From assembly GCF_024298765.1 (NCBI RefSeq), contig NZ_CP101210.1: a stretch of DNA of 64,000 nt. One strand, written 5' to 3'. Origin of the DNA: Escherichia coli (lineage in GTDB: Bacteria; Pseudomonadota; Gammaproteobacteria; Enterobacterales; Enterobacteriaceae). Position 1 is the first letter of the stretch. Every line of letters starts with the position of its first letter. This document shows positions 19,272 to 22,200 of this stretch, piece after piece. A program made the position numbers.

Positions 19272-22200
19272 GGAATGTTCATCTTGTGCTGTTGCACGGA
19301 TGGGGACTGAATGCCGAAGTGTGGCGTTGCATTGACGAGGAACTGAGCTCGCATTTTACGCTGCACCTTGTTGACCTGCCCGGCTTCGGGCGTAGCCGGG
19401 GATTTGGTGCGATGTCACTTGCTGATATGGCCGAAGCCGTGCTGCGACAGGCACCTGATAAAGCCATTTGGTTAGGCTGGAGTCTGGGCGGGCTGGTGGC
19501 AAGCCAGATTGCGTTAACCCATCCCGAGCGTGTTCAGGCGCTGGTCACCGTGGCGTCGTCGCCTTGTTTTAGTGCTCGTGACGAGTGGCCGGGGATAAAA
19601 CCGGACGTGCTGGCGGGATTTCAGCAGCAACTCAGTGATGATTTTCAGCGTACAGTGGAACGGTTCCTTGCGTTACAAACCATGGGTACTGAAACGGCGC
19701 GCCAGGATGCGCGGGCGCTGAAGAAAACCGTTCTGGCGTTACCGATGCCGGAGGTTGACGTGCTTAATGGCGGGCTGGAAATCCTGAAAACGGTCGATCT
19801 CCGTCAGCCGCTGCAAAACGTGTCCATGCCGTTTTTGCGATTGTATGGCTATCTCGATGGTCTGGTGCCGCGCAAAGTGGTGCCGATGCTGGATAAACTC
19901 TGGCCGCACAGCGAGTCGTACATTTTCGCCAAAGCGGCCCATGCGCCGTTTATTTCGCATCCGGTCGAGTTTCGTCACGTGCTGGTGGCGTTGAAGCAGA
20001 GGGTGTAGGTGGCTTTTGAAATGGCGAGACAGAATTTTACTGACTCGCCGCAGCCAACTCTTCTTCTGACACCCCGGTAAAGCGCATGATGTCCGCAAGA
20101 GGGACTCCGGATTACAGCATTCTTTTGGCGATATCCAGGGCTTCCAGGCGTCGACCCAATAAATAACCAATCAGGTAACTAATAAGATATTCTCTTTCTG
20201 CATCTGTCATTAAAACCATCCTTTACGTTATTGATGATTTATTTCAGCAAGGTCTTCAACCGTCAGGCTGGTAAATCGCAGAACGTCCTCAAGAGAAACT
20301 CCGGCGTCCAGCATGGTTTTGGCAATATTTAGGGCGTTGGTACGTATACCTTTCTGAAACCCTTCCTGCCGCAATCTTTCCGCAATAGTCATTAAGCTCT
20401 CCTTGTGTTTCGGTGAATGTTCGGCAACGCCGTCGATAAAATCGTTAAAACGTACCGCATCGCCGGTTTGCAAGATGTAATTAAACAGCCCTTTGATTTG
20501 TCTGTCATTAGCGTATCCACTACTTAATAAGCAGGCCATTTGCTCTACCAGCCCCATCAGATCGCGTTGACGAATATGTTTTTGAATTAACTCCAGCAGC
20601 GCCATACGTCGGTGCTGCATGATTTCATCATCAGGCATGACGGTGACATCAATCAGCGGAAATGCGGAGGCATAAAGCTGCCTTGCCAGGTTGGGATCGG
20701 CGAAACAATCCAGCCAACACAGCGAATAGGGATAGGGGCTTTCAATACCGTGGTAAAACAACAATGGCACCACCATCGGCAACGTTTTGTATCCGGCATC
20801 CAGGTGATTTTGCATTGCGGCAATAGCGTAACGCATCATGCGAAATGCGATCAGTTTGTTTGAGGTGCTTTGATGTTCAATCAGACAATAGATATATCCC
20901 GGTCCTTGTTCCGTTTTCACCGACCACAGCACGTCGGAATAGCTTTCACGCAGATCGTCATCAATAAAGCTGCTCGACTCCAGCTTGAGGGTTTTCATAT
21001 CACAGAGCGCGTGAATAGGTGCCGGTAAATGGAACGCAAGAAAATCGCGTGCCGTGTCCGGTTGGCGTAAAAAGAGTTTGAATAGTGCATCATGTGGGGT
21101 GGAACTCTGCTTTTTGCTCATGGCGTTCCTTCACCTGTTGTTTGAATGCCGTGACTCTACGCGCCACTCCACACCTGTGCATTAGCGAGTTTTCATCCCT
21201 GCGAGACGCTTTCAGAGGAACTTACGTTGTACTGCAAGGGTTGCATTTTTATGGAAAGCCGTGACTAGTCCTGATATACGTTGACACTTTTCTGTCTGTA
21301 AAACGCCTGATGAACGTCATCGGGTGTTTTGTATTTCAGAGCCAGATGTGGCCGCTCATGGTTATAAATTGCCACGGACTCTTTGACCATTTCCCGGGCC
21401 TGCGCCAGGTCTGCAGGACGCGAGAGTAAAAACTCATTTTTCAGGATACCGTTTATTCGCTCAGCCAGTGCGTTCTGGTAGCAGTCATAACCATCCGTCA
21501 TTGAACAGGTTATTCCATTTCTTTCATGAACTGACTGATAGAGCGCTGAACAGTATTGCAGCCCCCTGTCAGAATGATGCACCAGGGGACTCGTCGTTTT
21601 TCTCAGCCTCAGCGCCTGTCTGAACGCTTTTACCACATTTTCTGTCTGCAGGTTTTCCCCAACATGGTAGCCCATAATTTTTCTGGAGCAGGCATCGGTG
21701 ACCAGACTCAGATAGGCCGTACCATTGCGCAGTGGAAGGTAAGTAATATCGGCGACCCAGACCTGTTCTGGTTCAAGAGCGGTAACCTGTTCAGGGCCTG
21801 GTTTAAGCAGGTTTGGATGTCGGTAGAAGCGATGATGACTGTTGGTAGTTTTGTGATATGCCCGTTTTACTGGCACCAGGAGTCGGTATTCATCGAGCAG
21901 GTTAAACAGGCGGTCTCGCCCGATATTCAGCCTTTTATCGGCCTGAGTGTTCAGCAGATAGTGCAGCTTACGCGCACCGATTCGGGGCTGACGACATCTG
22001 ACACGGGCAACAAAATCAAGAACCTGAGCATGATGTTCCTGCCGTTTTCTGCGCCTTGTGTTGTCCTGATACCATGCCTGTCTGCTGTGTCCCAGGAACA
22101 GACATGCACGCGTCACAGTTATTTTGGGGGCCGGACTTTGCGCGAGGACTTGCCGGGCCGCTTTTTTACGATACTCACCCCGTAATCATTTTTAAGGACA

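What the first reader, a model, noticed from the sequence alone, without database searches (positions are those of the whole stretch)
20038..20210. Stand-alone, nonsense-interrupted Rpn C-terminal (RpnS-like) remnant immediately downstream of rpnA
In the 220-bp gap between bioH and rpnA, the minus strand encodes [32 protein letters not shown], then TAA, then SGVPLADIMRFTGVSEEELAAASQ. This is colinear with the last ~57 residues of RpnA, and the stop replaces the aligned Asp codon. In Rpn proteins the C-terminal region is reported to be translated separately from an internal start as a small protein that neutralises the full-length toxic nuclease. This fragment begins at the Met homologous to that internal start, so it looks like a degenerate tandem copy of the antitoxin unit, or a relic of a second Rpn gene.
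Basis: partly seen in the sequence, partly recalled or inferred. Interest (0 to 1): 0.5.

Follow-up and report, generated by a model that had tools for sequence, protein, structure and literature searches.

The report
Decayed second RpnA antitoxin gene copy
Just downstream of the E. coli toxin gene rpnA lies a broken, freely drifting second copy of the gene's built-in antitoxin unit; this kind of duplication is already described at two sister genes, so it is a modest finding, but it shows how the tail of the standard K-12 rpnA relates to this copy.

Summary
Window 20210..20040 (minus strand) reads [59 protein letters not shown]. It is homologous to Rpn C-termini far beyond chance (BLASTP 4e-11; crystallised RpnA-S, PDB 7TH0, 2e-13). 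It is a stand-alone downstream second copy of the rpnA antitoxin unit, with its own Shine-Dalgarno and ATG. This is the "RpnSs" class that Zhong et al. 2023 described for rpnE (ypaA) and rpnC. I found no description of one at rpnA.

About 853 of 5,426 complete E. coli genomes carry this long allele. All seven sampled have the TAA. Intact 57-aa versions (CAA, Gln) occur at the same locus in E. ruysiae-like genomes.

New points:
- The 3' part of the copy is the positional orthologue of the 3' end of the K-12-type rpnA, which stops 28 bp from bioH.
- Mosaic alleles join the in-gene unit to this copy at several breakpoints.
- The copy evolves neutrally (17 nonsynonymous : 4 synonymous changes), while the in-gene unit shows 0 : 6.
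- The stop falls at the end of predicted helix 1.

Verdict: a decaying pseudogene, a new member of a known kind. Some RefSeq records already flag it as a pseudogene. Moderate-to-low interest.

The parts
20228..21121 (-). rpnA, long allele (297 aa), the PD-(D/E)XK toxin RpnA-L
   Evidence: ORF. It scores 674 bits against the NCBIfam RpnA equivalog NF007361, above the 583-bit cutoff. RefSeq annotates it as rpnA in the identical strain 104.
20228..20392 (-). In-gene antitoxin unit S1 (rpnA-S of this allele, 54 aa, [54 protein letters not shown]); its SD AAGGAG lies at 20404-20399
   Evidence: Read from the sequence. The start is the same as the experimentally shown rpnA-S internal start in PMC10400941. 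The protein is invariant across nine long alleles, with 6 synonymous and 0 nonsynonymous changes.
20154..20359 (-). 206-nt segment that the K-12-type short allele lacks. It holds the 3' part of S1, the rpnA stop, a 17-nt spacer with the SD, and the first 19 codons of the downstream copy.
   Evidence: Alignment A1 of the window against K-12-like, 13P460A, S65EC and FHI_NMBU_03. A 206-nt probe over most of it (20347-20142) is present in 853 of 5,426 genomes, once per genome and always at this locus.
20219..20223 (-). Shine-Dalgarno AAGGA of the downstream copy, 8 nt before the ATG at 20210
   Evidence: Read from the sequence. The 30 nt upstream of the ATG are identical in 16 of the 17 long alleles compared. 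It aligns with the SD of the rpnA-S internal start.
20115..20210 (-). Downstream copy (rpnA-Ss), codons 1-32: [32 protein letters not shown], which is predicted helix 1
   Evidence: Translation. The AF2 model of the repaired protein has helix 3-33. Many 32-aa variants of this ORF exist in public data.
20145..20192 (-). Degenerate 12-nt (four-amino-acid) repeats EYLI/SYLI/GYLL/GRRL within helix 1
   Evidence: These align with the GxxE-type four-residue repeats of other RpnS units. A variant with one extra SYLI unit exists (P0030).
20112..20114 (-). Premature stop TAA at codon 33. The codon is CAA (Gln) in intact copies and GAA (Glu) in K-12-type rpnA.
   Evidence: Two exact 57-nt haplotypes containing the TAA are found in 492 and 178 complete genomes. 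The CAA haplotype is found in none.
20037..20111 (-). Post-stop part of the copy, SGVPLADIMRFTGVSEEELAAASQ plus final TAA (predicted helices 2 and 3). It is the positional orthologue of the 3' end of K-12-type rpnA.
   Evidence: The distance to the bioH stop is 28 nt, the same as in K-12-like L001. Over the last 34 codons (102 nt, which include the 9 codons before the stop) it differs from short alleles at 8-11 sites; after the stop about 96% is identical. It aligns to residues 11-49 of 7TH0.
20023..20049 (.). Small hairpin GGCGAG-N15-CTCGCC overlapping the final stop; possibly a shared 3'-end element of the convergent rpnA and bioH transcripts (inference only)
   Evidence: It appears in both minimum-free-energy folds and is conserved in long and short alleles. 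The consensus terminator scan did not call it.

Best explanation
The fragment is a decayed "rpnA-Ss": a stand-alone second copy of the rpnA antitoxin unit (RpnS, Pfam HTH_Rpn_C). It arose by tandem duplication of exactly the unit that runs from the ribosome-binding site to the stop codon. This is the same architecture as ypaA downstream of rpnE in K-12.

In this allele the toxin RpnA-L and its cognate antitoxin are made from rpnA itself (unit S1). The downstream copy lies on the same transcript (inferred: no terminator was found in between). It still has an SD and an ATG, but it is closed by CAA->TAA at codon 33.

At most it could yield a 32-residue helix-1 peptide that lacks the helix-turn-helix half. 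That helix is four residues longer than the S1 helix and has a very different, hydrophobic sequence. By the published repeat-number rule it should therefore not pair with the resident RpnA-L (inferred). The copy is evolving neutrally, so it is a pseudogene.

Its 3' part is orthologous to the tail of the K-12-type rpnA. The short K-12-type and O145-type alleles are most simply read as in-frame fusions of the rpnA body to this downstream copy. Recombination or deletion between the two units would produce them, at different breakpoints. The direction of change is inferred, not shown.
For: Homology and fold:
- BLASTP E=4e-11; PDB 7TH0 E=2.3e-13; NCBIfam RpnA C-terminus E=7e-12.
- AF2 model with pLDDT 92.9 and three helices; the top Foldseek hit is 7TH0, probability 1.00.

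Unit boundaries: the SD and ATGAC start align with the rpnA-S internal start. The same stop/SD/ATG layout is seen at K-12 rpnE-ypaA.

Intact state: 57-aa proteins P0005-P0009 carry precomputed Pfam PF27070. They lie in feoBC-rpnA-[57 aa]-bioH-gntX-nfuA synteny, with CAA where the window has TAA.

Distribution:
- 853 of 5,426 complete genomes carry the long allele.
- At least 670 carry an exact TAA haplotype and none carries the CAA haplotype.
- All seven sampled alleles have TAA.

Decay:
- Pairwise dN/dS of the copy is about 0.5-1.9, against 0 for S1 and about 0.015 for the rpnA body.
- Polymorphisms are 17 nonsynonymous: 4 synonymous in the copy and 0: 6 in S1, Fisher p=0.0007. The copy's ratio fits neutrality (p=0.8).
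- The same last 34 codons show 2 nonsynonymous: 10 synonymous inside short-allele rpnA, but 10: 3 in the downstream copy, p=0.005.
- Frameshifted variants exist: P0011, P0012, P0037, P0040, P0043.
- PGAP marks the fragment as a pseudogene with an internal stop in some genomes.

Orthology with the K-12 tail.

Mosaic or fusion alleles with different breakpoints: K-12 type; P0013, P0053 and P0056/O145 RM9873; P0059.

L091 carries a downstream copy with the K-12-specific EQSK segment. One 206-nt in-frame deletion of that allele would give the K-12 allele exactly.

Published precedent: PMC10400941 describes RpnSs copies and their loss by deletion or fusion.
Against: - No expression data were available, so I cannot say whether the 32-aa ORF is translated.
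- The SD, ATG and 32-codon frame are kept in most long alleles, and the TAA is nearly fixed. Selection for the short peptide would also produce this pattern.
- The neutrality test rests on about 20 substitutions from about 10 closely related sequences.
- The direction of change (long to short) has no outgroup. rpnA orthologues were found only in E. coli, E. ruysiae-like genomes and E. whittamii, and E. whittamii has the short type.
- L091 is a single low-coverage metagenome contig.
- The local Pfam scan of the repaired peptide gave no significant hit. PF27070 does not appear in that scan's output, so it may be missing from that library.
Confidence: 0.85

Rival explanations
1. The 32-residue product (helix 1 only) is a functional micro-protein. 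For example, it could be a dimerisation-helix decoy that titrates RpnA-S or RpnA-L and so tunes toxin release. On this reading the TAA is an adaptive truncation, not decay.
For: The SD and ATG are intact, and the upstream 30 nt are invariant in 16 of 17 alleles. The TAA is shared by at least 670 of about 852 long alleles and by all seven sampled. Helix 1 is the published dimer interface (PMC10400941), and the stop sits exactly at its end. An in-frame 12-nt repeat expansion occurs within the short ORF (P0030).
Against: Codons 1-32 carry mostly nonsynonymous variation: S11I, Y12H, Y16C, G19D and I27T against one synonymous change. At least 18 different 32-aa variants exist in public data, as do frameshifted and scrambled variants (P0012, P0049, P0050). 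The helix differs from S1 in length and is unusually hydrophobic. Shared ancestry alone explains a near-fixed TAA. Revertant or repaired alleles also exist (TAT in L093, GAA in L092).
Confidence: 0.08
2. The direction is the reverse of my reading. On this view the short K-12-type allele is ancestral. The long allele arose when homologous recombination imported a foreign or divergent rpn cassette (a new S1 tail plus the head of an Ss). That pushed the original rpnA 3' end out of frame and downstream, much as Rhs and CdiA C-terminal tips are displaced and left as orphans.
For: The boundaries are sharp: the flanks are 96-98% identical to short alleles, while the 206-nt segment is unalignable or only about 50% identical at protein level. 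E. whittamii has the short type. Between E. coli and E. ruysiae-like genomes, dS of the S1+Ss region (0.05-0.08) is lower than that of the rpnA body (0.20) and of bioH (0.26). This suggests the cassette moved between lineages more recently.
Against: No donor was found. The segment occurs only at this locus in E. coli, and plasmid hits are below 60% identity. The segment carries a complete SD, ATG and helix-1 head homologous to the rpnS unit, so a long-type architecture must already have existed in any donor. L091-type alleles cannot be made by homologous recombination between the present long and short types, but they give the K-12 allele by a single deletion. From my own knowledge (not tested here), the long allele sits in early-branching groups: UTI89 and E2348/69 are B2 and 042 is D.
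Confidence: 0.3
3. The fragment is just the rpnA/bioH 3' untranslated region, or a regulatory RNA or terminator, and its protein-like reading is accidental.
For: The copy shows no coding-type constraint. A small hairpin overlaps its final stop.
Against: Protein-level homology reaches E values of 1e-11 to 1e-13 against RpnA and 7TH0. Intact syntenic ORFs exist. There is no Rfam match above noise. The consensus scan found no terminator-like site in the gap. Fold-energy z-scores are -0.42 and -0.37.
Confidence: 0.01

Closest known systems
RpnE-Ss (YpaA, b4543) downstream of rpnE in E. coli K-12 (Zhong et al. 2023, PMC10400941)
   Same: It is a stand-alone second copy of the RpnS unit placed directly after the stop of its rpn gene on the same strand. 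It has a duplicated SD and an MT.AER start. It has one more four-residue repeat than the in-gene unit, and here the copy's helix 1 is likewise four residues longer than S1.
   Different: ypaA is an intact ORF whose protein was detected by tagging (paper). The window copy is closed by a stop at codon 33 and evolves neutrally. ypaA is still very similar to rpnE-S, whereas this copy and S1 are only about 50% identical. The helix-1 repeats of this copy are hydrophobic (xYLI), not of the charged or glycine-rich type.
[quoted passage not shown]
   Same: It is a strain-variable downstream RpnS copy. [quoted passage not shown] The allele series at rpnA suggests the same process.
   Different: It is a different paralogue and locus. 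The main text of the paper names no rpnA-Ss, and its supplements could not be read.
RpnA-S, the intragenic antitoxin of K-12 rpnA (PDB 7TH0)
   Same: Residues 19-57 of the repaired copy align to residues 11-49 of 7TH0. The fold prediction matches 7TH0. The region after the stop is the positional orthologue of the 3' end of K-12 rpnA.
   Different: It is not embedded in the toxin gene. Its helix 1 is eight residues longer and has a different sequence. It is interrupted by a stop codon.
Orphan or displaced C-terminal modules downstream of rhs and cdiA toxin genes (from general knowledge)
   Same: A homologous 3' module sits just downstream of the main gene, and recombination between the two can swap the expressed C-terminus. 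Mosaic alleles exist here.
   Different: Those orphans are toxin tips that usually lack start signals and come with immunity genes. Here the module is the antitoxin or oligomerisation domain, and it has its own SD and ATG.

Membership tests
RpnS / HTH_Rpn_C domain (PF27070), the C-terminal antitoxin domain of Rpn proteins | Significant sequence similarity to Rpn C-terminal domains | tested here: met
   BLASTP against the window RpnA gives E=4e-11. PDB 7TH0 gives E=2.3e-13. The NCBIfam RpnA equivalog matches positions 254-292 at E=7e-12. The intact homologues P0001-P0010 carry precomputed PF27070. The local Pfam scan gave no significant hit.
RpnS / HTH_Rpn_C domain (PF27070), the C-terminal antitoxin domain of Rpn proteins | Compact three-helix bundle with a long first helix | tested here: met
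The AF2 model has pLDDT 92.9 and helices 3-33, 38-45 and 49-56. Foldseek's top hit is 7TH0, probability 1.00, TM-score 0.81 normalised to the target. The window ORF as it stands encodes only helix 1.
RpnS / HTH_Rpn_C domain (PF27070), the C-terminal antitoxin domain of Rpn proteins | Four-amino-acid (12-nt) repeat variation within helix 1 | tested here: met
   The units EYLI/SYLI/GYLL/GRRL align with the GxxE-type repeats of other RpnS units. P0030 has one extra SYLI unit. S1 alleles differ by four residues, TNAL present or absent.
RpnSs: stand-alone downstream second copy of RpnS (Zhong et al. 2023) | Located directly downstream of an rpn gene on the same strand, with translation signals duplicated from the internal start | tested here: met
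   The rpnA stop is at 20230-20228, the SD at 20223-20219 and the ATG at 20210. The alignment covers the SD and the start. K-12 rpnE-ypaA has the same layout.
RpnSs: stand-alone downstream second copy of RpnS (Zhong et al. 2023) | Closest to the RpnS of its own upstream gene family rather than to other Rpn paralogues | tested here: met
   The best NCBIfam model is the RpnA equivalog. The generic Rpn subfamily model scores far lower. The closest solved chain is RpnA-S.
RpnSs: stand-alone downstream second copy of RpnS (Zhong et al. 2023) | Intact ORF encoding the whole domain | tested here: not met
   The window and all seven sampled E. coli complete genomes have TAA at codon 33. The feature is met in E. 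ruysiae-like homologues L005-L012. The window element is therefore a pseudogene member of the class.
RpnSs: stand-alone downstream second copy of RpnS (Zhong et al. 2023) | The protein is synthesised | not testable with these tools
   This needs start-site ribosome profiling or tagging in a long-allele strain.
Functional antitoxin of the resident RpnA-L | Purifying selection on the coding sequence | tested here: not met
   dN/dS is about 1. Polymorphisms are 17 nonsynonymous: 4 synonymous, against 0: 6 in S1 (p=0.0007), and the ratio fits neutrality. In the same 34 codons the counts are 10 nonsynonymous: 3 synonymous in the copy and 2 nonsynonymous: 10 synonymous inside short-allele rpnA.
Functional antitoxin of the resident RpnA-L | Same number of four-residue repeats in helix 1 as the cognate RpnL (specificity rule in PMC10400941) | tested here: not met
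   The copy has 23 residues before the AL.IAK motif and S1 has 19. The helix-1 sequences are also unrelated beyond MT.AER.
Functional antitoxin of the resident RpnA-L | Blocks RpnA-L toxicity, SOS induction or DNA cleavage | not testable with these tools
   This needs co-expression assays.
Displaced orphan C-terminal module (Rhs/CdiA type) | 3' fragment without its own translation start, left behind when a new tip is inserted | tested here: not met
   The fragment has its own SD, ATG and a full-length unit. There is no adjacent immunity-type gene: bioH follows after 28 nt.

The most novel reading that the evidence does not exclude
The downstream copy works at the population level as a silent cassette. 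On this reading, recombination between the in-gene unit S1 and the Ss copy has repeatedly produced new rpnA C-terminal alleles, which set toxin-antitoxin specificity. Three kinds of event would be involved: deletion fusions, gene-conversion patches and allele-to-allele repair. The canonical K-12 rpnA, and hence the crystallised RpnA-S, would itself be a fusion of the nuclease body to a former Ss copy. Tandem RpnS copies would then be a general diversification device for this defence family, not mere debris.
Probability: 0.3. Interest if true: 0.55.

Novelty: new member of a known kind. Interest (0 to 1): 0.35.

Why it matters
Rpn proteins are a recently recognised toxin-antitoxin and phage-defence family in which the antitoxin is translated from inside the toxin gene. 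Specificity is set by a hypervariable helix.

This locus adds a third E. coli example of a stand-alone downstream antitoxin copy, at the best-studied paralogue, rpnA. It offers a natural series of states:
- intact in E. ruysiae-like genomes;
- nonsense-truncated in about 16% of complete E. coli genomes;
- repaired or reverted alleles;
- several in-frame fusion alleles, apparently including the K-12 reference allele.

The series makes the published idea that RpnSs copies are lost by deletion or fusion concrete and testable. It also cautions that results obtained with K-12 RpnA-S may not transfer to B2 and D strains such as UTI89, E2348/69 and 042, whose functional rpnA-S has a different tail.

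For annotation, the fragment should be labelled an Rpn C-terminal (HTH_Rpn_C) pseudogene, not "transposase".

Tried and rejected
- **Local Pfam scan of the repaired peptide.** It gave only noise (LPD23, FumaraseC_C). PF27070 seems to be absent from that library, so I relied on precomputed Pfam labels, the PDB, NCBIfam and fold comparison.
- **PADLOC.** No model matched RpnA or either small unit.
- **The one allowed genome-contig scan, with RpnA as query.** It was meant to provide outgroups. It returned only E. whittamii at this locus, plus RpnB and distant Rpn genes from Photorhabdus, Xenorhabdus, Erwinia and others. The ancestral state therefore stays unresolved.
- **Protein search with the 54-aa S1 unit.** It collected only 9 candidates and found no donor.
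- **Protein search with full-length RpnA.** Below about 90% identity there are no true orthologues. The hits at 73-76% (P0065, P0067, P0068) are RpnA/RpnB chimeras, probably assembly artefacts or paralogue recombinants.
- **tblastn of S1 against plasmids.** Apart from two chromosomes filed as plasmids, all hits were below 60% identity.
- **RNA readings.** There was no Rfam family (one sub-threshold lncRNA hit, E=0.08). The consensus scan found no terminator or promoter in the gap. Neither strand folds unusually well.
- **Out-of-frame origin of the hydrophobic xYLI repeats.** By reading the sequence I checked whether they are an out-of-frame or antisense version of ordinary charged repeats. All alternative frames contain stops, so I rejected the idea.
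- **Controls that had to be dropped.** My first count of polymorphisms in the 100 codons upstream of the internal start was corrupted by an IS5-disrupted allele (L100). The repeat on 200 codons was corrupted by a 4-codon indel (L005). I discarded both controls and used the pairwise estimates and the matched-codon test.
- **Probe offset.** The probe was offset by 12 nt from the true boundaries of the allele-specific segment (20359-20154). This does not affect the count.
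Full report
**1. The observation**

The window is E. coli. On the minus strand, in its 5'->3' order, lie an IS3-family element (21265-22523), rpnA (20228-21121), gntX (about 18517-19200) and nfuA (17883-18458). bioH (19238-20008) is on the plus strand between rpnA and gntX.

The 219-bp gap between the bioH stop and the rpnA stop reads on the minus strand as follows:
- TAA (rpnA stop), then CGT.
- AAAGGA, then TGGTTTTA.
- ATG ACA GAT..., which translates to [32 protein letters not shown].
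- TAA at 20114-20112.
- SGVPLADIMRFTGVSEEELAAASQ.
- TAA at 20039-20037.

The similarity is not chance:
- BLASTP against the window's RpnA gives E=4e-11.
- The only PDB match is 7TH0, the 49-aa crystallised RpnA-S, at E=2.3e-13.
- The NCBIfam RpnA equivalog matches its last 39 positions, E=7e-12.

**2. What the locus looks like in other genomes**

A 471-nt probe over the region hits 5,424 of 5,426 complete E. coli genomes, but only 853 hold it in full. In the others, including K-12-like, B-strain and O157:H7 genomes, rpnA is 292 aa and stops 28 bp from the bioH stop. That is exactly where the window's fragment stops.

The alignment shows that the window allele equals the short allele plus a 206-nt segment (window 20359-20154) inserted after ...[11 protein letters not shown]. 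The segment carries three things:
- a different tail for rpnA ([43 protein letters not shown], stop);
- a 17-nt spacer with an SD;
- the first 19 codons of the fragment.

Downstream of the segment, the fragment is the positional orthologue of the short allele's 3' end. After the internal stop it is about 96% identical to short alleles. That matches the divergence of the flanks: 2.5% for bioH and 3% for the rpnA body. The "remnant" is therefore closer to the crystallised K-12 RpnA-S than the window's own functional in-gene unit (S1) is.

**3. It is a duplicated antitoxin unit, and intact versions exist**

Homology between the fragment and the rpnA-S unit starts at the ribosome-binding site. The in-gene unit reads AAGGAGAGCTTAATGACTATTGCGGAAAGA and the fragment reads AAGGATGGTTTTAATGACAGATGCAGAAAGA. 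The gap shows no trace of a nuclease domain. So one RpnS unit was duplicated, not a whole rpn gene.

A search of 5.8 billion proteins with the repaired peptide found intact 57-aa proteins (P0005-P0009, 88-91% identical). Their sources name them E. coli or E. ruysiae, and they carry Pfam PF27070 (HTH_Rpn_C). Their contigs show the same synteny: feoB-feoC-rpnA (293-297 aa)-[57-aa gene]-bioH-gntX-nfuA-gntT.

The codon at the window's TAA varies across alleles:
- CAA (Gln) in these intact copies.
- GAA (Glu) in short-allele rpnA.
- TAT in one metagenome allele (L093).
- GAA in another (L092), which acquired a K-12-like 3' part by recombination.

An AlphaFold2 model of the repaired protein (pLDDT 92.9) has helices 3-33, 38-45 and 49-56. 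Its best structural match is 7TH0, with probability 1.00. The stop therefore falls at the very end of helix 1 and removes the helix-turn-helix half.

**4. How common is the stop?**

Two exact 57-nt haplotypes centred on the TAA account for 492 and 178 complete genomes. The CAA haplotype has no exact match. All seven long alleles I read have the TAA: the window, L004, L094-L097 and L100. Carriers include UTI89, E2348/69 and 042.

In some RefSeq records PGAP already annotates the fragment as a pseudogene: "transposase; internal stop; incomplete; missing N-terminus". Public assemblies also hold many 32-aa ORF variants and several frameshifted versions.

**5. Selection**

| Comparison | Nonsynonymous | Synonymous | Test |
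|---|---|---|---|
| Downstream copy, ten long alleles (stop codon excluded) | 17 | 4 | fits neutrality, binomial p=0.8 |
| In-gene unit S1, nine of the same ten alleles (L004 excluded for length) | 0 | 6 | against the copy, Fisher p=0.0007 |
| Last 34 codons, as the working tail of short-allele rpnA | 2 | 10 | |
| Same 34 codons, in the downstream copy | 10 | 3 | p=0.005 |

Pairwise estimates agree. dN/dS of the copy is about 0.5-1.9, even among intact copies. It is 0 for S1 and about 0.015 for the rpnA body. The copy is therefore unconstrained in every lineage sampled, whether intact or not. The numbers are small, but they are consistent.

**6. Likely (non-)function**

Zhong et al. 2023 (PMC10400941) report four relevant results:
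- RpnS units are translated from an internal start.
- They bind and block the toxic full-length nuclease.
- They dimerise through the long first helix.
- They act only on a partner with the same number of four-residue repeats in that helix.

The copy's helix 1 (EYLI-SYLI-GYLL-GRRL) is four residues longer than the S1 helix and eight longer than that of K-12 RpnA-S. It is unusually hydrophobic. It still undergoes 12-nt repeat changes (P0030).

I infer that even the intact copy would not be cognate to the resident RpnA-L. The 32-aa product, if made at all, would lack helices 2 and 3. The consensus scan found no terminator-like site between the rpnA stop and the copy, so it probably lies on the rpnA transcript. 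No RNA family or unusual RNA structure explains the region.

**7. Comparison with what is known**

The same paper describes "RpnSs": stand-alone second copies of RpnS downstream of rpnE (ypaA, protein detected) and of rpnC in some strains. [quoted passage not shown]

I read K-12 rpnE-ypaA and found the same layout. The stop is followed directly by AAGGAGAGATTAATG, and ypaA has one more four-residue repeat than rpnE-S. The window element is therefore an rpnA-Ss in a decayed state. The main text names no rpnA-Ss, and the supplements were not available. Tandem RpnS-like pairs also occur next to Rpn genes of Photorhabdus and others.

**8. The allele series and the origin of the K-12 tail**

Besides the long allele and the K-12 type, there are alleles that join S1-type sequence to Ss-type sequence at other points:
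- After ALNIAK (P0013).
- After LRFT (P0053; P0056, the O145 RM9873 type, about 42 genomes).
- An S1-type DVLRFT patch inside a K-12-type tail (P0059).

L091 is a long allele whose downstream copy carries the K-12-specific EQSK-ALHIAKIMLE segment. One 206-nt in-frame deletion of it would give the K-12 allele exactly. L091 cannot be made by homologous recombination between today's long and short types, because the junction shares only GGG.

The simplest reading is that the long architecture is older and the short alleles are fusions, but this is inference. rpnA orthologues exist only in E. coli and its closest relatives. E. ruysiae-like genomes have the long type and E. whittamii has the short type. 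The reverse direction, import of a cassette into a short allele, remains possible. I give it about 0.3.

**9. Verdict**

The element is a pseudogenised downstream copy of the rpnA antitoxin unit. It is a new member of a published kind, and some RefSeq records already flag it as a pseudogene.

Two points go beyond the ordinary. The copy is orthologous to the K-12 rpnA tail. The mosaic allele series suggests that tandem copies feed C-terminal switching.

Interest is 0.35.

Noticed in passing
window 21265-22523 (minus strand): An IS3-family element (orfA 22119-22523, orfB 21265-22116, programmed frameshift) sits between feoC and rpnA, about 140 bp upstream of the rpnA start. E. coli strain 104 (chicken) has the same arrangement, but most genomes have feoC about 200 bp from rpnA. 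The IS may change the rpnA promoter context.
   Followed up: partly
L003 1004-1378 (E. coli S65EC); also hits H22-H27 (ST131 and others): In many B2/ST131-type genomes rpnA has lost its N-terminal nuclease part but keeps the short-type RpnS unit. It is annotated as an Rpn pseudogene or as an "Rpn/YhgA-type helix-turn-helix domain-containing protein". In effect it is an orphan antitoxin left after the toxin was deleted.
   Followed up: no
L098 (E. coli O145 RM9873-C1) 1-1083: About 42 genomes carry an S1/Ss fusion allele of rpnA (…[38 protein letters not shown]). In L098 it is followed by a MazE/MazF-type toxin-antitoxin pair inserted right after the rpnA stop; the other genomes of this class were not checked.
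   Followed up: partly
L013 3150-4450 (E. whittamii) and L100 160-1330 (E. coli 118UI): rpnA is independently disrupted by insertion sequences. In E. whittamii an element encoding a 376-aa TnpB-like ORF (my reading of the ORF) is inserted at codon ~215. In strain 118UI the element is IS5.
   Followed up: no
L004 and L092 compared with the window, S1 unit (window about 20335-20324): The functional in-gene unit differs by exactly four residues between long alleles ([14 protein letters not shown] against FQKGIR-AIAK). This is an instance of the published 12-nt repeat-number variation.
   Followed up: partly
window compared with L007 (E. ruysiae-like), rpnA-bioH region: Synonymous divergence is much lower in the S1+Ss cassette (about 0.05-0.08) than in the rpnA body (0.20) or bioH (0.26). 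This hints that the cassette was exchanged between Escherichia lineages more recently than its flanks. The number of sites is small.
   Followed up: partly
L034, L037, L043, L054, L080 (Photorhabdus spp., Martelella alba): Each locus shows two RpnS-like tblastn hits 200-430 nt apart next to a distant Rpn gene. Downstream second RpnS copies therefore seem widespread outside E. coli.
   Followed up: no
L103 (metagenome contig ERZ27281236 k141_1869); proteins P0065, P0067, P0068: These are hybrid proteins with an RpnA N-terminus and an RpnB-type C-terminus, or the reverse. One contig joins feoC-rpnA to the neighbourhood that the RpnB-like locus L014 also shows (epimerase, then FolB; the GST genes lie beyond the part of L014 I read). 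They are either assembly chimeras or real recombination between rpn paralogues.
   Followed up: no
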